Source: Verrucomicrobiota bacterium (GTDB lineage: Bacteria > Verrucomicrobiota > Verrucomicrobiia > Limisphaerales > VHDF01). From it: a stretch of DNA of 64,000 bases. Numbering within the stretch: the stretch's first letter is position 1; each line of letters opens with the position of its first letter. Shown piece after piece: positions 5,411 through 53,118 of the stretch. A program made the translations under genes and the position numbers. The notes under the pieces were generated by a model. The model had not been told where the DNA came from and ran no database searches. It saw only the letters and a list, made by a program, of their open reading frames with translations. The DNA lies in assembly GCA_016871495.1 (NCBI GenBank), contig VHDF01000020.1, forward strand, positions 1-64,000, read 5' to 3'.

Positions 5411-5604
5411 AGGATTTCGATAAAACGCTCCCGAATCATGGCGGCGAGGCGCGACTTCCGGCAAGCCACAAAACGTGGCCTTCCAGCCTGGCGGTGCATC
5501 CCGAAGTTGTCTGGAGTGTGGCGCAGGCTGCCCAGCCTGCCGTCTCGCCGACGGCCCGGCGGGTGAAGAACCAGGCCCTTCCATGCTCTCCAGGCGCCTG
5601 GAGA

Positions 5605-5733
5605 GCCTATTTCATGCACGGGACGCCCGGTGAGGACACCGGGCCTACAAACACGGAGGCAGTCGAGATTGTAGGCCGCGTGCCCTCACGCGGCGCACTG
5701 TCGCGGATTCAAGCTCAGTATGAAATATGCGGG
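5605..5733. repeat. Family-2 palindromic intergenic repeat, copy 1 (~130 bp, REP/MITE-like)
   Basis: Near-identical to 37599..37729 (about 85-90% identity). Termini are inverted (tatttcat...atgaaata) and there are internal hairpins (cccggtg/caccggg; ggcctacaa/ttgtaggcc). Confidence 0.6.
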
Positions 5734-5875
5734 CTAGTCCCTTCGTCGCCCCGCAGGCTGGGCAGCCTGCGAAACAGCAGACAGGGCTGCCTGCGTGACC
5801 AGGACAACCCGGTCACCGACAACCTCTTGATGCACCGCCGGCGTGGCCATGCCAAGCCCGGCGGAGGGATCCGGT

Positions 5876-10434: not shown

Positions 10435-10905
10435 AGATGGTGCCCGAAATTTAGGGTGCTGAGGTCCTGTCTGTCGAGGCTCGATGGGAGGCTCCGGCAG
10501 TTTGGATGTGGCCGCTTGGGGAGATCGTCGAGCGAAAGTGAGCAACTTGAACGGGAGGGCGAGGTCATGTAGGTTGCGGCATGCGACCGACATCACGAGA
10601 CGTTTCATTTCAGACACGGAGTGGCGATTTTCTTTTCCACCGATTTGAATTCCGGGTCCCTGGTAACGCGATCGGCCTCCTTTTCCTTCGCCAGGGCGGC
10701 TGCGAAAGCGTCGGTCAGAATGATTTTGAAGCGGGCTCTCACATCGGCGGCGGTGTTGGCCAGCGCGCGGTTCGTTGTGGAAGCAGGGGACGAGCGCGAA
10801 GCTGTCGAGCATTTTAGCGGTCCTTTCGATCCGCCTGTTCCCGCTCTGCTTCTTGTGCTCCGACCACGCTTTGGTCAATGGGTTCTCGCACGGCCTGCGT
10901 TCGAG

Positions 10906-11039
10906 CGGTGCATCCCGATGTTGCCGGTGATGCAGGTAGGGCGCGTCCGTCCCGGCGCGCCGCCGGAGCATGATGTTTTGCATCCAGTGGGCGGCGGGCT
11001 GGGACAGGCCCGCCCTACCAACAACATCGGGATACACGG
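10906..11039 (-). mobile_element. 134-bp MITE, copy A (inverted relative to copies B and C)
   Basis: Terminal inverted repeats cggtgcatcccgatgttg ... caacatcgggatacacgg. Flanked by a perfect 9-bp direct repeat gcgttcgag (10897-10905 and 11040-11048). About 95% identical to the copies at 13808 and 49978. Confidence 0.75.
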
Positions 11040-11089
11040 GCGTTCGAGAACCCCAAAGTATCCATCTTGATATCAGCGCTCATCGCTTC

Positions 11090-11378
11090 GAGTCTCACTT
11101 CTCGTCCAAAGCCAGTAAATACTTGATATATAATAGATTAAAGTGTTTGTCAGACTCTCCCGATCCGGACTGACTGCATCCTCTTTTGGGCGACCACTCC
11201 AGGGCTTTACCTCCGGCGCGCCTGCCCTCGCGGGCTCTGTCGTTGATTCCCGGGGCGGATGCTCGCGGAATGCGGCCCTGGCTCAATGGCAGCTTTCCCG
11301 GTGTGGGACGTTCCGGTACCGCGGGGAGGTTTGCCCGGCGTGCGTTGAGGTTGATCGTAATAATGGACTTAATTTGTA
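11090..11378 (+). promoter_or_regulatory. AT-rich putative promoter region upstream of the nfeD-flotillin operon
   Basis: A locally AT-rich stretch in a 62% GC context (aaatacttgatatataatagattaaag; gatcgtaataatggacttaatttgtaatg) immediately 5' of the 11379 start. Confidence 0.25.
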
Positions 11379-12007
11379 ATGTCCAAGCTCGGCTGGGACG
11401 CTATCATCCCACTCAATTCGATGAGCACGCTCGCTTTGATTGAATCGGTGGGAGGTTGGTGGAACGCACTTACACTCGCCAAGCAGCTCTTTTTTGGCAT
11501 CGGGTTGCTCGCCTCTCTGGTTGCGCTGGTGATTGCCGTGTTGTCCATGATTGGCATGGAGCACCACGATGGCCTTGATGTCGCCCGGGGAGTGGACCAT
11601 GGCGGAGGAGGCGTGTTCTCCATCAAACCGCTGACCGGCTTTTTTCTCGGCTTCGGCTGGGCGGGTGGATTGGCCCTGGACGGTGGTCTGACCCTCGCGG
11701 CGGCCATCGGGGTCGCGGTTCTTTCGGGTCCCTGATTTTAGCGATGGTCGTGGCCATGTTTCGCGCCATCTATAGTCTCAAAAGCGATGGCACCTCGCGG
11801 ATTGATGACGCGGTGGGCGTGGTGGGCACCGTGTATGTCACGATTCCGCCTGCCCGTGCGTCCGGGGGCCAGGTGATGGTTCCATTCAGCGGGCGTTTGC
11901 AAACGCTCGCTGCGATCTCCGCAGCCGGCAAGCCCATCCCGAGCGGTGAGAAAGTCAAGGTTCTCAGCGTGGTGGACACGCATACCGTACAAGTGGAGGC
12001 ACTCTAA
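11379..12007 (+). CDS. NfeD-like (YuaF-type) membrane protein. Its N-terminal TM part and C-terminal OB-fold part are in different frames, so there is an apparent frameshift near 11722.
   Basis: ORF 11379-11735 (frame 0) encodes 2-3 TM helices. ORF 11744-12007 (frame 2) encodes an NfeD-type beta-barrel (VGVVGTVYVTIPP...GEKVKVLSVVDTHTVQVEAL). Adding one T to the run in 'gttctttcggg' gives a continuous ...VAVLFGSLILAMVVAMF... reading. The NfeD-flotillin gene order is conserved across bacteria. Confidence 0.5.
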
Positions 12008-12041
12008 ACCGACTCTGTTTCGTTCCCACCCCATCCTGATC

Positions 12042-13540
12042 ATGATCCAAGTCATCGCCATTTCCATCGTCGTCGTTTTCCTGGTGCTCATCGCGATCAT
12101 CCTGATTTCGCGTTACCGGATGTGCCCTCCTGATCGAATCCTGGTCGTGTTTGGCAAGCTGGCGGACGGGGTTTCCTCAAAATGCTATCATGGCGGATCG
12201 ACTTTTGTGATGCCATTTTCCAGAGCTACAGCTACCTCGACCTGACGCCCATCAACATCGAGATTGAGCTTCGGGGGGCGCTTTCCAGCCAGAACATTCG
12301 CATCGATGCGCCGGCCTCCTTTACCATCGGCATCTCGACCGAACCCGAGGTGATGCAGAATGCCGCCACGCGTCTCTGGGGCCGCACCATGGATGAGATT
12401 CAGCAACTGGCTTCCGAGATCATCATGGGACAAATGCGCGTCGTGTTTGCCTCCATGAGCATTGAGGAGATCAACAGCGATCGTGAAAAGCTGATTTCGC
12501 TCATTACCAAAGGCGTTGAGGTTGAGCTCCATAAAGTGGGTTTGCGGATGATCAACGGCAACATCCGCGACATCAAAGATCACTCCGGTTACATCGACGC
12601 GCTGGGGAAGGAGGCTGCGGCGAAAGCGATCAACGATGCTCAAATCAAGGTGGCGCAGGAAAATCAGCGGGGGGCGATTGGGCGCGCTGAGGCTGAGCGT
12701 GAACAGGCCATTCGCGTGGCCAACGCCCAAGCCGAGGCGAGAAAGGGAGAAAACACCGCGCAGGTGGTCATTGCCAAATCCAATGCGGACCTGGCGACTG
12801 AGCAAGCCGAAGCCAAGCGCCGCACGGAGGCTGCGCAGATGGTGGCCGAAGCTCGCGCGCTCCAGGAATCCTACAAAGCCCAGCAGGAAGCCGAACTGGC
12901 CCGGGCCGCGCGCGAGCAGGCGCAGCAACAGGCCGATCAGATCGTAAAGGCCGAAATCGAAAAGGAGCGACTTCGCATTGATTCCGAGGCCAAGGCCGCA
13001 CAAGCCAGAATTCTCCAGGAAGGCCAGGCGGCAGCCTACATTGTGCAGAAGGATGCGGAGGCCCAGGGCATCAGGCGTGTGGCCGAAGGTGAAGCGCAAG
13101 GAATCAAGGCCAAGCTCGGCGCGGAGGCGAGCGGAATTCAGGCCAAGCTGTCCGCCGAGGCGGAAGGCACACGGGCTTTGCTTGATGCCAAAGCGCAGGG
13201 GTTCGAGAAACTTCTGAAAGTTGCCGAAGACGCTTCCGGCGCCACGCAGCTCCTCATCGCCGAGAATATTGTGCGCATCGCGGAGATCCAAGCGGGGGCG
13301 ATCAAGGGGCTGGCCTTCGAGAAAATCGTGGTGATGAACGGCGGGGTTTCCGGCTCCGGGCCCGGCCAGTTCGTGCAGGATTTGTACAAGGGAGTCTTGC
13401 CCGTGAACGAGATTGCGAAAAGCGTCGGACTCAACCTGCCCTCGTTCCTCGGGCAGTCGTCCGAAGGAGAGGCCCCGGCGCAAACTCCGAAGCGAGAAGC
13501 GCCCAAACCGGGGAGCGAGCGCAACCCTCCCAGCGCCTGA
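12042..13540 (+). CDS. Flotillin (SPFH/band-7 domain, FloT/YuaG-like), with an apparent -1 frameshift near 12213
   Basis: N-terminal TM segment plus SPFH start (MIQVIAISIVVVFLVLIAIILISRYRMCPPDRILVVFGK...GGSTFVMPF) in frame 0, ending at 12245. The SPFH core and the coiled-coil EA-rich tail (QSYSYLDLTPINIEIELRG...) are in frame 2 from 12182. A 5-T run instead of 'ccattttcc' would give the uninterrupted ...FVMPFFQSYSYLDLTP.... Confidence 0.75.
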
Positions 13541-13807
13541 GTCATCAAGAGGCCGGTGGATTGACAGCAGTGCATCCATAGGTTGTCGGTGAAGCGCGTG
13601 GCAGCGCTTGGGGCGCGGCGTTCACGCCGCTTCAAGGCGTGGCTTCTAAAGGGCATAGCCGGTTCAACGGGCAAGCGTGCTGCCCGGGCGATGGCATCCA
13701 CCCACGGTGGGCCATGGAGTGGGAGGAGATCGCCGCGGCAGGTTGGCGCGAGCGGAAGCGCCGTGAACGGGGCGTCCCGACATCGAGCGGATGCGCCGGA
13801 CTTACAG

Positions 13808-13941
13808 CCGTGTATCCCGATGTTGTTGGTAGGGCGGGCCTGTCCCAGCCCGCCGCCCACGGGATGCAAAACATCATGCTCCGGCGGCGCGCCGGGACGG
13901 ACGCGCCCTACCTGCATCACCGACAACCTCTGGATGCGCCG
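13808..13941 (+). mobile_element. 134-bp MITE, copy B
   Basis: Left TIR ccgtgtatcccgatgttg. The right end is diverged (caacctctggatgcgccg). Flanking 9-bp direct repeat gacttacag / gactttcag (13799-13807 and 13942-13950). Confidence 0.7.
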
Positions 13942-14056
13942 GACTTTCAGCTCCACCCCGGTTTGGTGTTGTCATTCGGCGGCAGCCGCTCTAAGATGAG
14001 AGTAGAAACCCCGATTCACGCGAATGGTTCCAACCGCCCCGCTTTGACCTTGAATT

Positions 14057-15370
14057 ATGCGTATCTCCCCAGTCTCACGCCGTCTTTTCCTTGGCAGGGC
14101 CGCTTTGGCCGTCTCGGCCCCTTTGATTCTCCCTTCGCGTGTGTGGTCCGCGGCCGTTTCGCCCAATGACCGCATTCAACTCGGCTTCATCGGAATGGGC
14201 ACCCAGAATCGCGGGTTGATGTCCGGCTTCCTGCGGACACCGCAGACGCAGACGGTGGCGGTTTGCGATGTTGATCGCACGCGGCGGCTGGCGGCGCAGA
14301 CGGTGGCCAAGGATCATTTTGCCAAACAGGGGGGAGGAGGTGGCTGTGAGGCGTATGAGGATTTTCGGGAGTTGCTGGCCCGCCGGGATGTGGATGCCGT
14401 GGTGATCGCAACCCCCGATCATTGGCACGCGCTGATCAGCATCGCAGCGGCGAGGGCGGGCAAGGATATTTACTGTGAAAAGCCCCTCTGCCAGTCGATT
14501 CACGAGGCTCGCGCCATGGTGAAGGCTGTCCGCAAGCACAAGCGCATTTTCCAGACAGGCTCCATGCAGCGGTCGAGCAAGGAATTTCGCGTGGCCTGCG
14601 AGCTCGTTCGGAACGGCGTGATCGGGAGAATCTCCACGGTTGAAGCCTCGGTGGGCGGTCCGGGCATGCCGTGCGATTTGCCGGGCGAAACTCCGGAGCC
14701 GGGTTTGAATTGGGACCTGTGGCTGGGTCCTGCCCCTTCGCGGCCTTATCATTCCGAGCTGAGTCCCCGCGGCGTGCACAAACACTTCCCAAACTGGCGG
14801 CGTTATCGTGAGTACGGCGGGGGCGGGGTGACGGATTGGGGCGCGCATCATTTCGACATTGCCCAGTGGGGCTTGGGGATGGACCAGAGCGGTCCGGTGG
14901 AAATCACCCCAGCGTCCGATCCCAAGGCATCCTTTGGCGTGCGCGCCCGTTATGCCAGCGGAGTGGAGTTGGTGCATTCGAACGGCAACGGCGTGGTTTT
15001 CCATGGGAGCGAAGGCAAGATCTCGGTGGACCGCGGCAGGTTTTCCTTGTGGCTGGGCTCTCAACTGAAGTCGGAGTCGGCCTCCGAATGCGAAGGCATT
15101 GCCCGGGAACTGTTGAAGTCGAATGCGGAACGGCTTTATGCGAGCACGGATCACAAGGCGGATTGGTTGAACAGCATCCGCACCCGGAAGCCGCCTATTT
15201 GCGATGTGGAGGTGGGTGCTCGGACGGTGACGGTCTGTCATTTGATCAACCTCGCTTATTACCACGGCCAGCGCATGGTATGGGATCCCAAGCGGGAGCG
15301 GTTTGCCGGGGGCGCCGGAAACGCCGCCTGGCTGGATGTGCCCTACCGGGGGAACTGGAAACTGGGTTAG
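14057..15370 (+). CDS. Gfo/Idh/MocA family oxidoreductase with a TAT signal
   Basis: MRISPVSRRLFLGRAALAVS is a twin-arginine signal. Rossmann-fold start (GFIGMGTQNRG), DAVVIATPDHWHA and KDIYCEKP motifs. Confidence 0.85.
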   Translation: MRISPVSRRLFLGRAALAVSAPLILPSRVWSAAVSPNDRIQLGFIGMGTQNRGLMSGFLRTPQTQTVAVCDVDRTRRLAAQTVAKDHFAKQGGGGGCEAYEDFRELLARRDVDAVVIATPDHWHALISIAAARAGKDIYCEKPLCQSIHEARAMVKAVRKHKRIFQTGSMQRSSKEFRVACELVRNGVIGRISTVEASVGGPGMPCDLPGETPEPGLNWDLWLGPAPSRPYHSELSPRGVHKHFPNWRRYREYGGGGVTDWGAHHFDIAQWGLGMDQSGPVEITPASDPKASFGVRARYASGVELVHSNGNGVVFHGSEGKISVDRGRFSLWLGSQLKSESASECEGIARELLKSNAERLYASTDHKADWLNSIRTRKPPICDVEVGARTVTVCHLINLAYYHGQRMVWDPKRERFAGGAGNAAWLDVPYRGNWKLG

Positions 15371-37598: not shown

Positions 37599-37729
37599 CC
37601 CGGATATTTCATGCACGGAACGCCCGGTGAGAACCCCGGGCCTGCAAACACAGAGGTCGTCGCGATGGTAGGCCGCGTGCCTCACGCGGCGCACTGTCGC
37701 GGATTCAAGCTCAGTATGAAATATCCGGG
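37599..37729. repeat. Family-2 palindromic intergenic repeat, copy 2
   Basis: Perfect 14-bp terminal inverted repeats cccggatatttcat / atgaaatatccggg. The internal core is almost identical to 5605..5733. Confidence 0.6.
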
Positions 37730-37804
37730 CCAAGAGGGATATTCGTGCTGGTGATGTTTGGAATCCGGTCTTGTTTCGGCCTCAGCCCGGGGTATGTTTC
37801 CATG

Positions 37805-46356: not shown

Positions 46357-49300
46357 CTACTCCTCGGAAGTGACAATCAAAACCCCGCGCATCAGTCGCC
46401 AATGGCCGGGAAAGGTGCAGAGGAAAGGGTAGGAGCCGGGATTTCGGGGTGCTTCGAAGCGCAATTCGGCGCGGCCTTTCGGGTTGACCAAGGGCGTGGC
46501 CGCGAGAATCTGAGGTGAATCTGGCACATAGGCCTTGGCCATGCCCTGAGGATCAGCCGCCATGCGATCGGCCAAGGCTCCGACCTCTTCCCCGGCTCCC
46601 GCCTGCACGAGCACCCAATTGTGGACCATGAGATCGGGATTCTCGAAGACCAAGCGAACTTTCGCGCCCGCCTTGACCCGAAGTTCCTTGGGAGAGAATT
46701 GGAGTCCGGCCGCGGCGCGAACCGTCAAGGCACCGCCTCCCGCCAATTGGGTCTCGGTCCAGGACGAGGCCATGGCCGCGAGATCGGCGGTTTGTCCGGG
46801 CAGAGTGACGGTGGCCAAGCGTTGTCCGACAGGATCGAACAGATACGCCGGCGGCGGACGCCCCTGTAATTTCCGATATTCGATCTCCAGCAAGTTCAAT
46901 CCCGGTTTTAGCTCGAACTGGGCTTGTTGCTCGCTGCTCCATTGGGAATCGTGAGAAAGCACGGTTTCGCCGTTGACACGCACGTCGAGAAAACTGTGCT
47001 TGGTGGACAGGATGGCCGGCTGCGCGGACTCGGAGCGAACCAAGGTTCGAAACACGCCTGGACCTAGCCGTTCGCCCGACGAATCGCTGGTGTCGATGGT
47101 GACGGGTGGACGTCGCGCTTCTTCGCCCAGGAACTGCCAGTAGCGAACACGAGTGTCTGGGGAGGTTTCGAGGACCGGCACGCTGCGGCCTTTCGCGGGT
47201 TTGGTGCCCTGTTTGAGATCTTCGAGCATTCTCAACACATCCGTCTGGGTTGGGCGGAGGGCATGGAGAGCATGCTCAACCTCCGGATGACCTGGACGCA
47301 AATGGGCGACGGCATCGACGACCTCCATTTGGACACGAGGATGCGTGTCGCCTGCCATCGTGTGGAGCCGTTCGACGAGTTGAGGAATGCGGTCGAATTG
47401 ATAACGCGCAAGCCGCACTGCCGCGGCGCGATGGTGGGGCGATGCCGAGCGTTGAAGCCGGTCCAGCAGGGCGGGACGGGTTTCGTGGAAGCTTTCGAGA
47501 ACGAACAAGGCTTCCAGCACCGATTGATCCTCGTCGAGATGGCGGGCTGCCCATGCCTCCACATCGGCGATCACGGCCCGGCCTTGGCGGCGAAGCTCAA
47601 GCCGGGCGTGTTTGCGCACCAGATCCTGCGGATGGCCCAGCAATTCCAGCAGATCGGAGACCGACCCCCCGAGAATGCGGGGCCAATTCGTGACGACCGG
47701 ACGGCCTTGGTGCGTGATTCTCCAGATGCGGCCTTTGACATGGTTCCAGCGCGAGTCTCGCATGGGATGTTGAGCGTGTCCGATGATGGCGCTGCTGAAA
47801 TCGGAGACATAAAGCGCGCCGTCGAAACCGAACTCCACGTCCACAGGACGAAACGCCGCGTTCGTTGAACTGACGAGGTCGAGCCGCCCGCGGGCCCGGG
47901 CCATGCCCTGATTCAAGTCGAACTGGGTCATGGAAACCAGATAGGGTCCGACGCAGGCGGCGGAGGCGATGCCTTGCTGATACTCGGGGGGAAAGTTTGG
48001 ACTCGAAATGCTGGCGGCGGCGCTGCCTTTGCCGTAGCCCAGAATCTTGGCGTGCGCGAAGGGATGATAGATTCCGAGCGGCGTCCACGTGAGCGCCAAT
48101 CCGTCGAGGACCAGTCCATCTCCATACATCTGAAAGATATTGCCCGTTCGGTCGAAGGTGATTTTCCATGGATTGGGCGTAATGCTCTGCCATTCGGATT
48201 CGATGCGGTTCGAGCGCGGGTTGAGGCGGTAGGTGGTGGCGTCCACACCTCGGACGACGCCCCAGGGCGTTTCGAATTGGGATCGATGGAAGACGCCATC
48301 CGAGAACCACACGTTGCCTACCGGGTCGGTGGCGATCATGCCCCCATGGTGAGAATCGGTGAGATCGAGTCCGCGAAGCCGTTCGTGGCGGCGGTCGGCG
48401 CGGCCGTCACCGTCGGTGTCTTCGAGCAGCCAGTGTCGCGATTGTTCAGAAACGAGGACCCCTTCGGAGGTAAACGCGATGCCGTCAAGCGCGTCGAATC
48501 CTTCAGCGAAGACCGTCGATCGGTCGGCTTTTCCGTCCCGATTGGTGTCTTCAAGCACGAGCAGTTTGTCCAATTGCGGCTGGCCTGGAATGGTGTGAGG
48601 AAAGCTGGGCATGGTGACGACCCAAAGCCGTCCACGGGCGTCGAAGGCGATTTGAACCGGTGCGCGCAGGTCGGGAAACTCCTCGTCGGAGGCGAAAAGA
48701 TTGACCCGGTAATCGGGAGCCACTGTGAACTCGGCTTGGGCTTCGGACGCGGACTTGACGACTCCGACGCTGTGAGTGGATCCACCGGAGGGAGGAACGG
48801 GGGGCGGGGCCAGCAGAATTGGGGGTGCGTTGGAGAAACGGGTGGAGGGATTCACGGAAAGTTCATGAACGAGGGCCTCCGCCAGGTCGATGCGGCGGAA
48901 GTAGAGAGGCATCTCGGCGTCGCGTTCTTCCGGTCGTTTGCGCTGGCCGTAGTAGAGAATACCGTTCTTGGGACGGACCGTTTCAGCGACGAAATGGGCG
49001 AGCCGGGCGGCGGCGGGGCGGACTTCATCCAGTCTCTCGGGAGCGATGCGACGAAGCAGCACCGTGTCGAGGCAGGACTCGGCGATGACCCGGGCCATCC
49101 TGCGATTCCCCGCGTCGTTCAAGTGCAATCCGTTCAGGGTCAGTTTGGAGGGACTCGATGAATAGGCGGTTTGGCTGGCACGGAAAAGGTCGATGAACAA
49201 GGCGCGGCGTTGCTCCGCGGTTTGGGCGAGGACCTGACTGTAGCGGGCGAGATCTGCGTTGCGAGTGGAAGCGTCGGGTCCGGTCCAGCCGGGTTCGAGG

Positions 49301-49809
49301 GCGGTGGGGGCAAGCAGAACCCAGCTCGCGTTGGGGTGGAGGCGTTGCAACTGGTCGAGCATTTGATGGAGATGCGTACGGAACGTTTCCAGGCCGGAGA
49401 CTCCGGCAAAGGATTCGTTTCCCCCGAAGGCGAGGAAGACCACCTGCGCGGGCCAGCGGGCGAGCATGGCTCGAAGATGATCCGCGTAGCCTTCCGCCCG
49501 GAGGCGGTGGCCGACTTCATCTCCCGTCCAGGCGAGAGAACGAAAGCGGAGCTTCAGGGCCGGGTTTGCGAGGTGGAAGAGCGACTGCAGCTCGCCGTTT
49601 TCGAGCAAACATTCGACCAGTGCGCCTCCGTAGAAAACGAGAGTGTCCTGGGGTTGGAGGGCGATCCGGGGACTCGCGGTCGCTGGCCCCAAGGGGGCGG
49701 GTTGCCGGCTGGATTCCTTTTGGGCATCGTTGTCCGCCGCTTGGCCGCAAAGGAAGATGGACGTCAACATCGCGCCGAGGAGGGGCAGGAAATGGAAGCG
49801 ATGGTGCAT
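46357..49809 (-). CDS. Large secreted multidomain protein: SGNH/GDSL-hydrolase-like N-terminus, beta-propeller (glucose/sorbosone-dehydrogenase-like), HEAT-like repeats, and a C-terminal azurin-like cupredoxin domain
   Basis: Signal peptide MHHRFHFLPLLGAMLTSIFLCGQA. The C-terminus (HNWVLV...YPFLCTFPGHWRLMRGVLIV) reproduces the azurin type-1 copper ligand set (His, Cys-x2-PGH-x3-Met). The start was trimmed from 49962 to the ATG at 49809. Confidence 0.7.
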   Translation of the reverse strand: MHHRFHFLPLLGAMLTSIFLCGQAADNDAQKESSRQPAPLGPATASPRIALQPQDTLVFYGGALVECLLENGELQSLFHLANPALKLRFRSLAWTGDEVGHRLRAEGYADHLRAMLARWPAQVVFLAFGGNESFAGVSGLETFRTHLHQMLDQLQRLHPNASWVLLAPTALEPGWTGPDASTRNADLARYSQVLAQTAEQRRALFIDLFRASQTAYSSSPSKLTLNGLHLNDAGNRRMARVIAESCLDTVLLRRIAPERLDEVRPAAARLAHFVAETVRPKNGILYYGQRKRPEERDAEMPLYFRRIDLAEALVHELSVNPSTRFSNAPPILLAPPPVPPSGGSTHSVGVVKSASEAQAEFTVAPDYRVNLFASDEEFPDLRAPVQIAFDARGRLWVVTMPSFPHTIPGQPQLDKLLVLEDTNRDGKADRSTVFAEGFDALDGIAFTSEGVLVSEQSRHWLLEDTDGDGRADRRHERLRGLDLTDSHHGGMIATDPVGNVWFSDGVFHRSQFETPWGVVRGVDATTYRLNPRSNRIESEWQSITPNPWKITFDRTGNIFQMYGDGLVLDGLALTWTPLGIYHPFAHAKILGYGKGSAAASISSPNFPPEYQQGIASAACVGPYLVSMTQFDLNQGMARARGRLDLVSSTNAAFRPVDVEFGFDGALYVSDFSSAIIGHAQHPMRDSRWNHVKGRIWRITHQGRPVVTNWPRILGGSVSDLLELLGHPQDLVRKHARLELRRQGRAVIADVEAWAARHLDEDQSVLEALFVLESFHETRPALLDRLQRSASPHHRAAAVRLARYQFDRIPQLVERLHTMAGDTHPRVQMEVVDAVAHLRPGHPEVEHALHALRPTQTDVLRMLEDLKQGTKPAKGRSVPVLETSPDTRVRYWQFLGEEARRPPVTIDTSDSSGERLGPGVFRTLVRSESAQPAILSTKHSFLDVRVNGETVLSHDSQWSSEQQAQFELKPGLNLLEIEYRKLQGRPPPAYLFDPVGQRLATVTLPGQTADLAAMASSWTETQLAGGGALTVRAAAGLQFSPKELRVKAGAKVRLVFENPDLMVHNWVLVQAGAGEEVGALADRMAADPQGMAKAYVPDSPQILAATPLVNPKGRAELRFEAPRNPGSYPFLCTFPGHWRLMRGVLIVTSEE

Positions 49810-49977
49810 GCGGAAGACCGTATCCGCGTCCGTGGCGGGGGGGCAAGCCGGCGGATGGTGAGCGTGGGAGATCGTTGGGATGGATGGCCTGGTGAGGGAT
49901 GCCGCGGGTTTGGCCGGAGGCCGGGGCGCGGCACGACTTTCGGCCGGGGACTGGAGAGGCAACCCCGAACTGCGGAT

Positions 49978-50111
49978 CCGTGCATCCCGATGTTGTTGGT
50001 AGGGCGGGCCTGTCCCAGCCCGCCGCCCACGGGATGCAAAACATCATGCTCCGGCGGCGCGCCGGGACGGACGCGCCCTACCTGCATCACCGGCAACATC
50101 GGGATGCACCG
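49978..50111 (+). mobile_element. 134-bp MITE, copy C
   Basis: TIRs ccgtgcatcccgatgttg ... caacatcgggatgcaccg (17 of 18 bp complementary). Perfect 9-bp direct repeat actgcggat on both flanks (49969-49977 and 50112-50120). Confidence 0.8.
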
Positions 50112-50174
50112 ACTGCGGATCAGGGACAAACGCGGGGGTTGTCGAGGCGGGCTTTGTTCTGTAGAATGCAAAGC

Positions 50175-50804
50175 ATGAAACGCATCCTGCTTTCCCTTGT
50201 GGCCGCGCTTGCCGCGGTTTCCTTCATTGACGCCGCCTCGAACGAGGAAGGATTTGTCTCCATCTTCGACGGCAAGACATTCAACGGCTGGAAGATGGCG
50301 AATGAGAATCAAAAGACGTGGCGGATTGAGGACGGCGCCATGGTGACGCGGGGTGAGCGTTGTCACGTGTTTTACGTGGGGGACGAAAAGCCGTTCAAGA
50401 ATTTCGAGCTCAAGATCGATGTCATGACCGAGCCCGGATCGAATGGGGGGATTTACTTTCACACTCGTTACCAGGAAACCGGCTGGCCGAAACAGGGTTT
50501 TGAGTGCCAGGTCAACGTGAGCCAGGGCGACTGGAAAAAGACCGGCAGTCTTTACGATGTGGTGAATCTGGCGAGCACTCCGGCCAAGGATCGTCAGTGG
50601 TGGACGCAGCACATCACGGTGAAAGGAAACAAGGTCACGGTTCGCATCGACGGCCAGATTGTTCTTGAATACACGGAGCCCAAGGGGGCCGTGGCCGGAA
50701 CGGATTTTACGCGGAAATTGAACGAGGGCACGTTTGCCTTGCAGGCGCACGACCCGAAGAGCGTGGTGCATTTCAAGAATATTCGCGTCAAGCGGCTCGA
50801 TTGA
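50175..50804 (+). CDS. DUF1080 (3-keto-disaccharide hydrolase-like, LamG/jelly-roll) domain protein, secreted
   Basis: Signal peptide MKRILLSLVAALAAVSF, and FDGKTFNGWK...WRIEDGAMV...FELKIDVM...NGGIYFHTR, the DUF1080 pattern. Confidence 0.75.
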   Translation: MKRILLSLVAALAAVSFIDAASNEEGFVSIFDGKTFNGWKMANENQKTWRIEDGAMVTRGERCHVFYVGDEKPFKNFELKIDVMTEPGSNGGIYFHTRYQETGWPKQGFECQVNVSQGDWKKTGSLYDVVNLASTPAKDRQWWTQHITVKGNKVTVRIDGQIVLEYTEPKGAVAGTDFTRKLNEGTFALQAHDPKSVVHFKNIRVKRLD

Positions 50805-51018
50805 CGAGTCGTTCCAAGCTGGCATGAAGCCCGAGCCACGCCGTGTGGCCCGGGCTTTTTTGCGTCAGGCATCGAAGAGGAGAGCCGGGTTGGAGGCGGT
50901 CCATTTGCACCGCAAGCTGTCTGTGGTAATACGACAACCCGGTCACCGACAGCCTGTAGATGCACCGGGTTGGAGGCCGACCTCCATCAATGGCTTTCTT
51001 TTCCCCGAGAGCTGAGGT

Positions 51019-53118
51019 ATGGCTGGCGATATGGGAAATCGAGAAAACAGTCTGAAACGCTGGGCGTCGGTTCTGATGAGTGTGGTTTTGGCTTTGTCGG
51101 CATTGGTTTCCATCGAAACTTTTGGAGCCACGATCGACGTCACCAAGACGCAGATCAAGCTGGCGACACCGGAACAGGTGCGGGACGCCTTTCGCCGCGG
51201 GCTTTTCATTCCGGTGACGGAAGGAGGTTCGACCCTGCTGGCGGCTCAAACGAATGCGCCCATCAAAGGCACGCTGGCTGTTGCGCTCGCGACTCTTGGG
51301 GCTTTCGACAAGGCGGAGCCCCTCCTGAAATCCGCGGAGGCGGCCAAGGAACCTCAGGCTAGACTGCATCGCATCTTGTTCGAGGCGTTGATCGCTGAGA
51401 AGGCGGGGAAAGTGGATGCGCTGACCAACGCCTGCATGCGGGCGATTCGCGAGGATTTTCGACACCCGGTGGCGTATTATTTGCTGGCGAAATCGGCTCT
51501 GGATCGGAAGGAGTTCGCCCGAGCGGAAAAGCACGCCAACGAAGCCCTGGCTTTCGAGCCCCAGATGGCGCCCTCCATGTTTCTGCTTGGCATCGCGCGG
51601 CATGGATTGAACAAGCGGGAAGAAGCGGCCCAGGACCTTGCGAAAGCGATGCAGATGGATCCGCTGGACGCTCGCCCGCGCCTGGCCTTGGGCACCCTTT
51701 ACGCTGAGGCGGGAGCCCATGCGCAAGCGGTCGGATTGTTTCGGGAAGTGGCTACGATGAACCCCACGATGTTCATTGCCAGAGAGCGCCTCGGCCTTTC
51801 GCTCTTGGAACTGGGGCGGACCGACGAGGCGGTGGCGACCGCGCAGGAGGTGTTGCAGTCGCAACCGCAATCGATTCAAGCCCGCTACACGCTGGCGCTC
51901 GCCCAACTAAGGGCCGGAAAGATCGAGGAGGCCGAGCGGGAATTGAAACTGTTCACCGAAGCTGCTCCGAACGCATCGGAAGGCTATTATTTGACGGGAT
52001 TGGCCAAGGCCTTGCGAAATCGTCCCCAAGAGGCGCACGCGAGCCTGGCCAAGGCACTTCCTCTGGCGGCCCAGCGCAGCGGGGTGCTCAGCGCCATGGC
52101 CACCTTTCACCATCTGGCGGGAGATCTCGACGAGGCGGCAAAAGGTTTTCAGGAGGCTTTGCCGGGAGCCCAACCGGGGATGACGGACCGCATTCATTTT
52201 CAGCTCGGATTGCTGGCGTTGGATCGCAAGGACTGGAAAAAGGCGCACGAATGGTTTCAAAAAAGCACGAAGTTCGTTTCAAATTTTCGAAGCGACTTGC
52301 TCGATTACCCGAGTCTCTTTCAGGCGGCTCCGGCGAAGAGCCTGGGTTCCTCCAGCCTGGGCTGCCTGCTGCTGGCGGACCGTTTTTTGGTGGCATCCCG
52401 GGATTCCTTCAAGAAGTCGTTGCAGTCTCACCCCCGGGACGCGGTGGCTCTGTTGCTGGGCGCGAGCGCGTCGGCGCGAATGGGCGACAGTCCGCAAGCC
52501 CTGGAATGGCTTGCGAAGCTCGCCGCGTTGCAGCCCAATTACTGGCCCGCGCACTATGCCTTGGGGGACCTTTATCTGAACCGGCGGGATTGGGAGAAAT
52601 CGGAGGCTTCCTTGAAACGCACGATCGAACTCGACCCCCTGAACGAGGCGTCCTATCTCCGATTGCTCGGCATTTATCGCGAGAAGAAACAGCATGATCA
52701 AGCCGACGCGACGGCCCGCCAAATGATGGCGAAAATGCCGTCCAATCCCCTGGGGTTCAATGAAATGGCGGCTTTGCTGGCAGACCGGAAAGAAAAGCTC
52801 GACGAAGCTTTGACGCTCGCCAAGAAGGCCCTTTCGATGGAAATGAAGAATGGCTATTTCCTCGATACCCTGGGCTGGGTGCATTACCAGCGAGGCGAGT
52901 TTACGCAGGCGGAAAAGACGTTGCGGGAAGCTGTGGCCGCTCTGCCGCGGCATCCTGAAGTGCGACTGCACCTTGGCTTGGTTCTTTTCAAGAATCAAAA
53001 GCTGGAGGAATCCGGAACTCACTTGCAGCAAGTGCTGAGCTTGGCGCCCGGTTCAAGCTTGGCCAAAGAGGCCCAAGATTTGTTACCCAAGACGGTAAAA
53101 CTTGGAGGCACGCCGTAG
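51019..53118 (+). CDS. TPR-repeat protein (secreted or membrane-anchored)
   Basis: Multiple TPR-like helical repeats (AxxxLxxAL.., YYLxGLA.., ...). N-terminal hydrophobic segment. SD-like 'gaggt' sequence 6 nt upstream. Confidence 0.75.
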   Translation: MAGDMGNRENSLKRWASVLMSVVLALSALVSIETFGATIDVTKTQIKLATPEQVRDAFRRGLFIPVTEGGSTLLAAQTNAPIKGTLAVALATLGAFDKAEPLLKSAEAAKEPQARLHRILFEALIAEKAGKVDALTNACMRAIREDFRHPVAYYLLAKSALDRKEFARAEKHANEALAFEPQMAPSMFLLGIARHGLNKREEAAQDLAKAMQMDPLDARPRLALGTLYAEAGAHAQAVGLFREVATMNPTMFIARERLGLSLLELGRTDEAVATAQEVLQSQPQSIQARYTLALAQLRAGKIEEAERELKLFTEAAPNASEGYYLTGLAKALRNRPQEAHASLAKALPLAAQRSGVLSAMATFHHLAGDLDEAAKGFQEALPGAQPGMTDRIHFQLGLLALDRKDWKKAHEWFQKSTKFVSNFRSDLLDYPSLFQAAPAKSLGSSSLGCLLLADRFLVASRDSFKKSLQSHPRDAVALLLGASASARMGDSPQALEWLAKLAALQPNYWPAHYALGDLYLNRRDWEKSEASLKRTIELDPLNEASYLRLLGIYREKKQHDQADATARQMMAKMPSNPLGFNEMAALLADRKEKLDEALTLAKKALSMEMKNGYFLDTLGWVHYQRGEFTQAEKTLREAVAALPRHPEVRLHLGLVLFKNQKLEESGTHLQQVLSLAPGSSLAKEAQDLLPKTVKLGGTP

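What the first reader, a model, noticed from the sequence alone, without database searches (positions are those of the whole stretch)
49978..50111. MITE copy C: 134-bp element with 18-bp TIRs and a perfect 9-bp target-site duplication
The element ccgtgcatcccgatgttg...caacatcgggatgcaccg is flanked on both sides by ACTGCGGAT. It sits in the divergent promoter region between the 1,150-aa cupredoxin-domain protein gene and the DUF1080 gene. Together with copies A and B (about 95% identical) it defines a non-autonomous transposable element family. A 9-bp TSD is the hallmark of transposase-mediated insertion, and I cannot match the TIR to a specific IS family. The insertion may affect expression of the flanking genes. 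Short ORFs in the ORF track (MMFCIPWAAGWDRPALPTTSG..., ...PDVVGRAGLSQPAAHGMQNIMLRRRAGTDAPYLHHRQ...) are artefacts of this repeat.
Basis: seen in the sequence. Interest (0 to 1): 0.7.

Follow-up and report, generated by a model that had tools for sequence, protein, structure and literature searches.

The report
ISKra4-derived MITE inserted upstream of promoter
This is a real 134-bp miniature transposon in a Verrucomicrobia genome, a gene-less derivative of an ISKra4-family insertion sequence whose transposase places copies at a fixed distance upstream of gene promoters; it is a new member of a known kind, not a new kind of element.

Summary
Window 49978-50111 is a 134-bp element with 18-bp terminal inverted repeats (17/18) and a perfect 9-bp duplication, ACTGCGGAT, on both sides. 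Copies A and B are 96-99% identical and have their own 9-bp duplications. The same 23-nt termini bound 2.19-2.27-kb insertion sequences in Verrucomicrobia MAG and metagenome contigs. These encode a DruA-like (DUF4338) protein and an ISKra4-family, Mutator-like DDE transposase. In MAG contigs they carry perfect 9-bp duplications. Dozens of 90-350-bp elements from other Verrucomicrobia share the termini but have unrelated interiors; 27 of 61 have perfect 9-bp duplications. Position is not random. A TTG lies exactly 27 nt outside the element end in 35 of 127 unique ends (2.2 expected), followed by a -10-like hexamer. All three window copies fit, and copy C sits 27 nt upstream of the DUF1080 promoter TTGTCG-17-TAGAAT. 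Promoter-upstream targeting is published for ISKra4-group elements, but at 13-17 bp. The outermost triplet (CCG or CGG) is a direct repeat, not an inverted one; this is unexplained. I found no empty site, and the window holds no transposase. The window holds six family elements.

The parts
49978..50111 (+). MITE copy C (134 bp). On the + strand it reads CCG-TGCAT...ATGCA-CCG. The CCG-type end is on the left and the CGG-type end is on the right, facing the DUF1080 promoter.
49978..49995 (+). Left terminal inverted repeat of copy C. Nucleotides 1-23 (to 50000) are identical to the ends of the full-length IS in L199 and L143.
50094..50111 (-). Right terminal inverted repeat of copy C (CGGTGCATCCCGATGTTG on the minus strand).
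49969..49977 (.). Left copy of the 9-bp target-site duplication ACTGCGGAT.
50112..50120 (.). Right copy of the 9-bp target-site duplication ACTGCGGAT.
50139..50167 (+). Sigma-70-type promoter-like site TTGTCG-17-TAGAAT. The -35 hexamer starts exactly 27 nt after the element end, and the ATG of the DUF1080 gene lies 7 nt after the -10 hexamer.
   Evidence: the only promoter-like site in 49700-51100
50175..50804 (+). DUF1080 / 3-keto-disaccharide hydrolase-like gene (209 aa), downstream of copy C.
46357..49809 (-). Gene for the 1150-aa protein with GDSL, DUF7133, HEAT and plastocyanin/cupredoxin domains. It is divergent from the DUF1080 gene, and its start lies 169 bp from copy C.
10906..11039 (-). 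MITE copy A (134 bp, 99% identical to C, opposite orientation). TSD GCGTTCGAG at 10897-10905 and 11040-11048. TTGACC lies on the minus strand at 10873-10878 and TTGATA on the plus strand at 11067-11072, each 27 nt from an element end.
13808..13941 (+). MITE copy B (134 bp, 96% identical to C; right repeat degraded). TSD GACTTACAG at 13799-13807 and GACTTTCAG at 13942-13950.
13969..13997 (+). Promoter-like site TTGTCA-17-TAAGAT, 27 nt after the end of copy B, upstream of the GFO/IDH/MocA oxidoreductase gene (14057-15370).
13568..13798 (+). Older, degenerate family element X (231 bp), in tandem with B on the same target 9-mer. The 9-mer now occurs three times: GATTGACAG 13559-13567, GACTTACAG 13799-13807 and GACTTTCAG 13942-13950.
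   Evidence: (D4)
5492..5837 (+). 346-bp element with the same terminal repeats. TSD CCAGCCTGG/CCGGCGTGG (7/9). It carries a nested 126-bp palindromic unit, and TTGCCG lies 27 nt outside its left end, facing the MIOX gene.
50897..50967 (+). 71-bp internally deleted relative of the 346-bp element. It is flanked by a perfect 9-bp duplication GGTTGGAGG (50888-50896 and 50968-50976) and lies between the DUF1080 terminator and the TPR gene.
   Evidence: (D6)

Best explanation
Copy C is a miniature inverted-repeat transposable element (MITE). It is a gene-less derivative of an ISKra4-family insertion sequence, whose transposase is a prokaryotic Mutator-like DDE enzyme of the p-MULT 4 group.

It keeps only the roughly 23-bp terminal repeats (C-[C/G]-GTGCATCCCGATGTTGTTGGT) that the transposase binds, around an unrelated GC-rich foldback interior.

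A transposase supplied in trans by a full-length element moves it. The full-length elements are about 2.2 kb and carry a DruA-like (DUF4338) gene translationally coupled to the transposase gene. No such element lies in this window.

Integration uses a 9-bp staggered cut, which gives the 9-bp duplication.

The insertion point is chosen relative to a promoter. The duplicated 9-mer lies 18 bp upstream of a sigma-70-type -35 hexamer, so the element end is 27 nt from it. That is why copy C sits just upstream of the DUF1080 promoter without interrupting it.

Shown here: the anatomy, the copies, the duplications, the shared termini with the autonomous elements, the transposase family and the positional bias.

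Inferred: mobilisation in trans, that the TTG/TAnnnT signal marks real promoters, and that the effect on the DUF1080 promoter is small.
For: - **Anatomy and copies.**
- **Duplications across the family.** Of 61 paired elements with both flanks, 27 have perfect 9-bp duplications, 7 have one mismatch and 6 have two.
- **Full-length partners.** Elements bounded by the same repeats are L199 53-2243 and L143 195-2390. Each encodes a PF14236 DruA-domain protein (E 1e-30 and 4e-27) and a protein whose best match is NCBIfam NF033572, ISKra4 family transposase (E 4e-54 and 2e-56, covering 22-420 of 422 model positions).
- **Same gene pair elsewhere.** It recurs in Verrucomicrobia MAG contigs with perfect 9-bp duplications: L203 TGGCGCCAC, L205/L206 ATCCCCGCG, L207 GGTCAGGGC. 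It also appears in ten further contigs.
- **Shared termini.** Nucleotides 1-23 of copy C are 100% identical to the ends of L199 and L143.
- **Agreement with published ISKra4-group features.** Published elements have 9-bp direct repeats and ends reading GGGTGC... (Table S1 of PMC3942029). They have 18-39-bp inverted repeats, 8-9-bp direct repeats, and insert upstream of sigma-A promoters on either side of the element.
- **Positional signal.** TTG occurs at offset 27 in 35 of 127 unique ends, against 2.2 expected (binomial P about 1e-31). A -10-like hexamer at 16-18 bp spacing is present in 16 of 35 such ends, against 13 of 92 controls.
- **Window promoters.** The only promoter-like sites the scan tool finds near copies B and C are the ones 27 nt from the element ends.
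- **Tandem insertion.** Elements X and B share one 9-mer at one promoter.
Against: - No transposase gene lies in the 64-kb window (tblastn). Whether the source genome holds an autonomous copy is unknown.
- No empty site was recovered. Public contigs of this organism break inside the repeat.
- The transposase scores 184-192 bits, just under NCBI's equivalog cut-off of 205.
- The termini start with C where published ISKra4-group elements start with G.
- The distance to the -35 hexamer is 27 nt, not the 13-17 bp published for the group.
- Only about 28% of ends show the TTG.
- L199 and L143 show no duplication. I attribute this to chimeric joining of flanks in short-read assemblies, as seen for L208-L217.
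- The promoters are consensus matches only, not mapped transcription start sites.
Confidence: 0.88

Rival explanations
1. It is a MITE, but it is mobilised by a different IS family that also makes 9-bp duplications (IS1, the IS10/IS50 groups of IS4, the IS903 group of IS5, or IS256). On this reading the match to the ISKra4-type elements is a convergent or borrowed end.
For: Several families give 8-9-bp duplications (my own knowledge of the ISfinder family table; not tested here). No autonomous element was found in the window.
Against: The 23 terminal nucleotides are identical to those of elements whose only transposase is ISKra4-like. The GGTGC subterminal motif and the 9-bp repeat match published ISKra4-group entries. 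MITEs and full-length elements share the same promoter-distance bias. No other transposase was seen bounded by these repeats in about 220 loci.
Confidence: 0.04
2. It is a functional structured RNA or DNA hairpin that is repeated because it is useful, for example a transcription terminator or insulator, a small RNA gene, or a REP/BIME-like extragenic palindrome spread by a RAYT (Y1) transposase. On this reading it is not a DDE-transposon relic.
For: It forms a very stable hairpin (z = -8), it is strictly intergenic, and it has several copies.
Against: Each copy has its own 9-bp duplication, which REP/RAYT spread does not produce (general knowledge; not tested here). No Rfam family reaches its gathering score; the only hits, far below threshold, are to generic long-hairpin plant miRNA precursors. 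Copies lie in both orientations relative to neighbouring genes. Across species only the termini are conserved and the interiors are unrelated, the opposite of what a functional RNA would show. No T-run follows the stem (one search lists no terminator there).
Confidence: 0.03
3. The transposon origin is accepted, but the copies upstream of promoters have been co-opted as regulatory modules. They might bind a regulator, bend DNA, or insulate the divergent promoters. On this reading their position reflects selection rather than transposase targeting.
For: Copies A, B and C, the 346-bp element and X all lie next to promoter-like sites. The hairpin could extrude as a cruciform between divergent genes (inference).
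Against: A single-nucleotide-sharp distance of 27 nt, shared by unrelated interiors and by full-length elements in many species, points to choice at integration; selection would give a broad intergenic enrichment. Published ISKra4-group elements show the same kind of targeting. Copies decay: B's right repeat, X, and the 71-bp remnant.
Confidence: 0.08

Closest known systems
ISKra4-group insertion sequences (p-MULT 4, prokaryotic Mutator-like transposases; e.g. ISKra4, ISAcce1, ISCasp2/3; Guerillot et al. 2014, PMC3942029)
   Same: The partner transposase's best and full-length match is the ISKra4 family model. Direct repeats are 9 bp. The inverted repeats fall in the 18-39 bp range. The subterminal GGTGC(A) motif is shared: ISAcce1 reads GGGTGCATTTAA and this family reads CGGTGCATCCCG. 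Insertion is at a fixed distance upstream of sigma-A-type promoters, with promoters found on either side when the two repeats are nearly identical. Some members carry an extra ORF of unknown function.
   Different: The element in the window is a 134-bp non-coding derivative, not an IS. The outermost base is C, not G, and the outer triplet is a direct repeat. The -35 hexamer is 27 nt from the end instead of 13-17. The partner IS carries a DruA-like DUF4338 gene coupled to the transposase gene. The host phylum, Verrucomicrobia, is not among the phyla listed for p-MULT 4 in that paper. Transposase scores are just under NCBI's equivalog cut-off.
TnGBS conjugative transposons and ISLre2 family (p-MULT 3)
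   Same: They have Mutator-like DDE transposases and 8-9-bp duplications, and they insert upstream of the -35 box of sigma-A promoters, which leaves the promoter intact.
   Different: They form a different transposase clade (the ISLre2 model gives only E 1e-16 to 1e-17). Their distance is 15-17 bp, with strict orientation set by dissimilar repeats. They are large ICEs or single-ORF ISs found mostly in Firmicutes.
Classical bacterial MITEs (e.g. Correia elements of Neisseria, RUP of Streptococcus, MITEs derived from IS630, IS5, IS4 or IS1)
   Same: They are short, non-coding elements with terminal inverted repeats, a family-specific target duplication, a foldback structure, multiple intergenic copies, and a dependence on a transposase supplied in trans (general knowledge).
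   Different: Those families give TA, 2-4-bp or other duplications and come from other transposase families. I found no paper tying a MITE to ISKra4. Promoter-distance targeting is not a feature I know of for them.
REP/BIME extragenic palindromes with RAYT transposases
   Same: They are repeated GC-rich intergenic palindromes.
   Different: REPs are 20-40 bp with GTAG or CGTC heads (abstract of PMC3733652). As far as I know they make no target duplication. Here the element is 134 bp with 9-bp duplications and a DDE partner.

Membership tests
MITE (non-autonomous derivative of a DDE transposon) | Short element with no transposase coding capacity | tested here: met
   The element is 134 bp. The only ORFs crossing it start inside the repeat. 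No transposase similarity is found in the window.
MITE (non-autonomous derivative of a DDE transposon) | Terminal inverted repeats | tested here: met
   17 of 18 nt match in copy C. About 23 nt are conserved across the family.
MITE (non-autonomous derivative of a DDE transposon) | Target-site duplication of fixed length that differs between copies | tested here: met
   The duplication is 9 bp: ACTGCGGAT (C), GCGTTCGAG (A), GACTTACAG/GACTTTCAG (B). It is perfect in 27 of 61 family elements.
MITE (non-autonomous derivative of a DDE transposon) | Multiple dispersed copies | tested here: met
   The window holds three 134-bp copies plus three further family elements. Dozens more occur in other Verrucomicrobia contigs.
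MITE (non-autonomous derivative of a DDE transposon) | An autonomous element with matching termini and the same duplication length | tested here: met
   L199, L143, L203, L205 and L207 are 2.19-2.27 kb with the same repeats. Perfect 9-bp duplications are seen in the MAG contigs. None was found in the source contig itself.
MITE (non-autonomous derivative of a DDE transposon) | Empty (unoccupied) sites in related genomes | tested here: inconclusive
   Public contigs carrying the flanking genes end inside the repeat. The nearest DUF1080 orthologues are at most 84% identical (the one fetched, 79% identical, is not syntenic).
ISKra4 family / p-MULT 4 (tested on the partner IS) | Transposase belongs to the ISKra4 clade | tested here: met
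   NF033572 is the best hit: E 4e-54 and 2e-56, full-length, at 184 and 192 bits against a curated cut-off of 205. The next model, ISLre2 or ISH6, gives E 1e-14 to 1e-18. There is a weak PF06782 UPF0236 match. This is a clear family relative just under NCBI's equivalog threshold.
ISKra4 family / p-MULT 4 (tested on the partner IS) | Direct repeats of 9 bp | tested here: met
   Published value: DR = 9 in Table S1.
ISKra4 family / p-MULT 4 (tested on the partner IS) | Inverted repeats of 18-39 bp | tested here: met
   About 23 bp are conserved, and up to 30 bp in L205. Published range.
ISKra4 family / p-MULT 4 (tested on the partner IS) | Conserved tips: element reads 5'-GGG...CCC-3', with a terminal cytosine on the strand listed in the paper | tested here: not met
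   Here the tips read 5'-C[C/G]G...C[C/G]G-3'. Positions 2-7 (GGTGCA) do match ISAcce1 and ISBeg3.
ISKra4 family / p-MULT 4 (tested on the partner IS) | Insertion at a fixed distance upstream of sigma-A promoters (a property of a subset of the group) | tested here: met
   There is a sharp TTG peak 27 nt from the ends and a -10-like peak 17 +/- 1 nt further on. The distance differs from the published 13-17 bp.
ISKra4 family / p-MULT 4 (tested on the partner IS) | Transposase sequence signature between domains N1 and N2 that is associated with promoter targeting | not tested
   The motif is given only in a figure of PMC3942029. I did not reconstruct it.
REP/BIME with RAYT | 20-40-bp palindromes with GTAG/CGTC heads and no target duplication | tested here: not met
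   The element is 134 bp, has a 9-bp duplication and has CSGTGCAT tips.
Known structured RNA family (Rfam 15) | Match at or above a family's gathering score | tested here: not met
   The whole window gave no match at gathering scores. With the E-value threshold, the only hits were 28-34 bits to plant miRNA hairpin families whose gathering scores are 142-268.

The most novel reading that the evidence does not exclude
The family may be a distinct ISKra4 subgroup with its own integration geometry, in two respects.

1. It reads promoters one helical turn further out than described relatives: 27 nt against about 16.

2. Its outermost triplet (CCG...CCG on one strand) is a direct repeat that is remade at every transposition. 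This would happen if it derives from a single 3-bp spacer in a circular intermediate (ATGCA-CSG-TGCAT) that is cut with a 3-nt stagger, each 3' end keeping one strand of the spacer. That would explain three observations:
   - 50 of 66 elements in 13 of 18 unrelated interior clusters have C/G at position 2.
   - The all-C combination is never seen.
   - The orientation of the triplet relative to the genes flips between IS lineages.

The coupled DruA-like GNAT-fold protein could be the factor that reads the promoter complex.
Probability: 0.2. Interest if true: 0.6.

Novelty: new member of a known kind. Interest (0 to 1): 0.4.

Why it matters
- **Annotation.** It gives a name and a mechanism to a repeat family that is frequent in Verrucomicrobia genomes. 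There are six elements in this 64-kb window. The repeat breaks short-read assemblies: three public contigs end inside it. It also seeds spurious ORFs, so annotating it improves gene calls and assemblies.

- **Reach of a known behaviour.** It extends promoter-upstream targeting by Mutator-like bacterial transposases to a new phylum and to non-autonomous elements.

- **A promoter marker.** The elements act as a free in-silico marker of promoter positions in a phylum with little transcription data. Each recent insertion points to a -35 box 27 nt away.

- **Testable leads.** The different spacing and the direct-repeat tips offer testable questions about how these transposases read a promoter-bound complex and process their ends.

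- **The gene at hand.** The insertion most likely leaves the DUF1080 core promoter intact and moves anything further upstream 143 bp away.

Tried and rejected
- **Genome scan too short.** Only the Verrucomicrobia loci were informative.
- **Scans with no match.** The viral contigs scan and plasmid BLAST found nothing.
- **L030 candidate.** A possible 1.1-kb partner in L030 turned out to be an ordinary esterase-like gene next to a solo end.
- **Empty sites.** Exact-protein look-ups of the flanking genes gave only contigs that stop inside the repeat. The one orthologue contig I fetched (a 79%-identical protein) was not syntenic.
- **Other IS families.** I considered IS1, IS4, IS903 and IS256 from memory of their ends and duplications. 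I dropped them once the ISKra4-type partners were found.
- **Druantia.** The accessory protein shares only the Pfam DUF4338 domain and matches no PADLOC model, so the partner IS is not a Druantia system.
- **Solved structures.** No solved structure is related by sequence to the transposase.
- **Circle junctions.** A search for circle-junction-like abutted ends in the held loci found nothing convincing.
- **Orientation bias.** The bias toward the CGG-type end facing the promoter (36% against 26%) is not significant (Fisher P = 0.38).
- **L199 and L143 flanks.** The lack of duplications around L199 and L143 is best explained by chimeric flanks in short-read assemblies, as shown by the shuffled flanks of L208-L217.
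Full report
**1. The observation**

The sequence is as described. The element runs from 49978 to 50111. It starts with ccgtgcatcccgatgttg and ends with caacatcgggatgcaccg, so the arms match 17 of 18, with the single mismatch at position 2. ACTGCGGAT sits immediately outside both ends (49969-49977 and 50112-50120).

The terminal 18-mer, allowing up to three mismatches, occurs six times in the window against 0.07 expected.

| Copy | Coordinates | Identity to C | Flanking 9-mers |
|---|---|---|---|
| A | 10906-11039, opposite orientation | 99% | GCGTTCGAG / GCGTTCGAG |
| B | 13808-13941, right repeat degraded | 96% | GACTTACAG / GACTTTCAG |

Because the 9-mers differ from copy to copy, they are duplicated target, not part of the element.

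The element folds as one long imperfect hairpin (-91 kcal/mol, z = -8).

The neighbours are as stated:
- A 1150-aa protein with GDSL, DUF7133, HEAT and plastocyanin/cupredoxin domains is encoded on the minus strand and starts at 49809.
- A DUF1080 (PF06439) gene on the plus strand starts at 50175.

A 100%-identical protein is on record as a DUF1080 protein of a Verrucomicrobia bacterium MAG, on a 64.5-kb contig.

**2. A family wider than three copies**

A 16-mer scan of reference genomes returned mostly chance hits. The Verrucomicrobia loci among them, however, held 90-184-bp elements with the same roughly 23-nt termini, unrelated interiors and their own 9-bp duplications.

A 21-mer scan of metagenome contigs gave 77 loci. 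Pairing the ends gave 62 distinct elements of 90-2196 bp. Of the 61 with both flanks available, the 9-mers match perfectly in 27, with one mismatch in 7 and with two mismatches in 6.

The window itself holds six family elements:
- Copy A.
- Copy B.
- Copy C.
- A 346-bp element at 5492-5837 (duplication 7/9).
- A 71-bp internally deleted relative at 50897-50967, with a perfect GGTTGGAGG duplication.
- An old 231-bp element X at 13568-13798.

**3. The autonomous partner**

Two metagenome loci carry the same repeats 2.19 kb apart: L199 53-2243 and L143 195-2390. Each encodes two proteins:
- A 286-aa protein with the Pfam DruA/DUF4338 domain (E 1e-30 and 4e-27).
- A protein of about 412 aa whose best and full-length match is NCBIfam NF033572, ISKra4 family transposase (E 4e-54 and 2e-56).

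The transposase scores 184 and 192 bits, just under the curated cut-off of 205. The next-best models, ISLre2 and ISH6, are about 35-40 orders of magnitude weaker in E-value.

The two elements are only 68% identical at the protein level, yet their termini are the same.

A homologue search found more than a thousand relatives. Most sit on contigs of 2.2-2.7 kb, as expected for a multi-copy repeat, and some are labelled Verrucomicrobia.

In longer MAG contigs the same coupled gene pair is bounded by the same repeats and by perfect 9-bp duplications:

| Locus | Source | Duplication |
|---|---|---|
| L203 | GCA_014860005.1 | TGGCGCCAC |
| L205/L206 | GCA_035577805.1 | ATCCCCGCG |
| L207 | ENA ERZ27256711 | GGTCAGGGC |

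Nucleotides 1-23 of copy C are identical to the ends of L199 and L143. The interior of copy C matches nothing else held.

The window contains no transposase.

L199 and L143 themselves show no duplication. The ten contigs of L208-L217 show flanks shuffled between copies, so I attribute this to chimeric assembly.

**4. Comparison with the published family**

Guerillot et al. 2014 (PMC3942029) place ISKra4 in the p-MULT 4 group of prokaryotic Mutator-like transposases. They report 18-39-bp inverted repeats and 8-9-bp direct repeats.

Their Table S1 lists ISKra4-group elements with a 9-bp direct repeat and ends reading GGGTGC... Examples are ISAcce1 GGGTGCATTTAA, ISBeg3 GGGTGCAGTCG and ISCasp2 GGGTGCGACTC. 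The family here reads C[C/G]GTGCATCCCG. The GGTGC(A) core is therefore shared and the outermost base differs.

The paper also reports that thirteen ISKra4-group elements, like TnGBS and ISLre2, insert at a fixed distance upstream of sigma-A promoters. [quoted passage not shown]

I found no paper describing a MITE of this family, or MITEs in Verrucomicrobia.

**5. Position relative to promoters**

I read the flank outward from every unique family end (127 ends). TTG occupies nucleotides 28-30 in 35 of them, against 2.2 expected from the other offsets (binomial P about 1e-31).

TAnnnT peaks at offsets 49-51, which is 17 +/- 1 nt after that hexamer. A -10-like hexamer matching at least 4 of 6 positions is present in 16 of the 35 ends with the TTG, against 13 of 92 ends without it.

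Both kinds of end show the signal: 23 of 64 CGG-type ends and 10 of 39 CCG-type ends. The difference is not significant.

Every copy in the window fits:
- **Copy C.** ACTGCGGAT, then 18 nt, then TTGTCG-17-TAGAAT, then the DUF1080 ATG 7 nt later. This is the only promoter-like site the scan tool finds in 49700-51100.
- **Copy B.** GACTTTCAG, then 18 nt, then TTGTCA-17-TAAGAT, upstream of an oxidoreductase gene. This is the only promoter-like site in 10700-14200.
- **Copy A.** TTGACC lies on the side facing the PSCyt/PSD1 gene and TTGATA on the other side, each at the same distance.
- **The 346-bp element.** TTGCCG lies at the same distance, facing the MIOX gene.
- **The full-length IS in L203.** It sits the same way upstream of the rplM-rpsI operon.

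Elements X and B lie in tandem on one target. The 9-mer now occurs three times (GATTGACAG, GACTTACAG, GACTTTCAG). [quoted passage not shown]

Selection for harmless intergenic sites would not give a peak one nucleotide wide, so I read this as target choice at integration.

The distance differs from the published 13-17 bp by about one helical turn. Whether that is a real difference or a matter of definition needs the published flanks to be rerun with the same method.

**6. How it most likely works**

- **Shown:** the element has only the transposase-binding ends of an ISKra4-type IS. It has spread to at least three sites in this contig with 9-bp duplications. Family members sit at a fixed distance from promoter-like sites.
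- **Inferred:** a transposase from a full-length element elsewhere in the genome binds the 23-bp repeats, excises or copies the element, and integrates it with a 9-bp stagger. The target 9-mer lies 18 bp upstream of a -35 box, probably through contact with the promoter-bound polymerase or sigma factor, as proposed for TnGBS.

The duplicated 9-mer plus 18 bp stays attached to the promoter. The DUF1080 core promoter and the usual UP-element zone are therefore untouched. Anything further upstream, and the divergent gene's control region, is moved 143 bp away. Any effect on expression is untested.

**7. Rivals**

- **Another 9-bp-duplicating IS family as the mobiliser.** This is unlikely, given identical ends on elements whose only transposase is ISKra4-like.
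- **A functional RNA or REP-like palindrome.** Several results argue against it. Each copy has its own duplication, copies lie in both orientations, and interiors are unrelated across species. No Rfam match appears beyond sub-threshold hits to generic plant miRNA hairpins, and no T-run follows the stem.
- **Co-option as a regulatory module.** This cannot be excluded for individual copies. The sharp distance shared with full-length elements and the visible decay of copies argue against it as the reason for the position.

**8. An unexplained detail**

On one strand the element reads 9-mer, CCG, TGCAT...ATGCA, CCG, 9-mer. The outer triplet is therefore a direct repeat, not an inverted one.

- Position 2 is C at one end and G at the other in 50 of 66 distinct elements, and this is the majority state in 13 of 18 clusters defined by unrelated interiors.
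- G/G occurs mostly in elements with decayed duplications: all four CG/CG pairs have imperfect duplications, although L058 1454-1543, with AG/GG tips, has a perfect one.
- C/C never occurs.
- The triplet's orientation relative to the genes differs between IS lineages. L199, L143, L203 and the L208 group have CCG at the DruA-like side; L205 and L207 have CGG there.

One model is that both tips derive from a single 3-bp spacer of a circular intermediate cut with a 3-nt stagger. Selection against a palindromic CCGCGG junction, or plain descent, are alternatives. I found no junction sequences to test this.

**9. Verdict**

The finding is real and correctly interpreted. It is a new member of a known kind: a MITE derived from an ISKra4-family, Mutator-like IS, sharing that family's habit of landing upstream of promoters. 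It is ordinary in principle. Interest is moderate because of the sharp promoter spacing, the new phylum, the non-autonomous form and the odd tips.

Two limits remain. No empty site was recovered, and no autonomous copy is shown in the same genome.

Noticed in passing
window 49978-49980 and 50109-50111; also A, L005, L020, L052, L199, L143, L203, L205, L207, L208-L217: The outermost 3 nt of the element are a direct repeat (CCG...CCG on one strand), not an inverted one. This holds in 50 of 66 elements and 13 of 18 interior clusters, and C/C is never seen. The triplet's orientation relative to the IS genes flips between IS lineages. A possible cause is a single 3-bp spacer in a circular intermediate.
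   Followed up: partly
window 13559-13950: Two family elements lie in tandem on one target: X (13568-13798, degenerate) and B (13808-13941). The 9-mer is present three times (GATTGACAG, GACTTACAG, GACTTTCAG), upstream of one promoter-like site at 13969-13997. Similar element-9-mer-element arrays appear in L132 and L151, and possibly in L141.
   Followed up: partly
window 5608-5734 and 37605-37730: A second repeat of about 126-135 nt is 88-98% identical between its two copies. It has a 17-bp closing stem (CCCGGATATTTCATGC...) and two inner hairpins (-75 kcal/mol, z = -6.2). One copy is nested inside the 346-bp element and one stands alone in an intergenic region. It has no Rfam match even at E = 1. 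It could be another MITE family or a structured RNA.
   Followed up: partly
window 50162-50177: The -10-like TAGAAT ends 7 nt before the DUF1080 ATG at 50175, which suggests a leaderless or near-leaderless mRNA. The public 212-aa protein record (P0001) is 3 aa longer than the ORF starting at 50175; that implies a start at the in-frame ATG at 50166, inside the -10 hexamer, and so is probably too long. Many other family flanks also show an ATG 5-12 nt after the -10-like hexamer.
   Followed up: no
L199 1316-2176, L203 1644-2504, L205 1644-2504, L208-L217: Every full-length IS of this family carries a 286-aa DUF4338 (DruA-domain) protein. Its stop overlaps the transposase start by 4 bp. The domain was described as GNAT-like in PMC10853773. 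The protein matches no PADLOC Druantia model, so it is an IS accessory protein of unknown role, possibly in target choice.
   Followed up: partly
L121-L123 and L218 (Logan contigs of SRR7990526, SRR16108670, SRR7053297): Public short-read contigs of the same organism stop 28-30 nt inside copies C and B, or just before the DUF1080 start codon. The repeat therefore breaks assemblies of this lineage.
   Followed up: yes
window 50826-50861: A hairpin followed by a T-run (AAGCCCGAGCCACGCCGTGTGGCCCGGGCTTTTTT) lies right after the DUF1080 stop codon and looks like an intrinsic terminator. The scan tool did not list it, probably because of the imperfect stem. The 71-bp element remnant lies just downstream of it.
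   Followed up: no
L005, L020, L024, L030, L052, L054, L101, L108, L111: Several lake-sample MAGs titled 'Akkermansia muciniphila' carry these elements, and L101 carries a partial ISKra4-type transposase. The titles may be loose taxonomic labels for other Verrucomicrobia. I did not check this.
   Followed up: no
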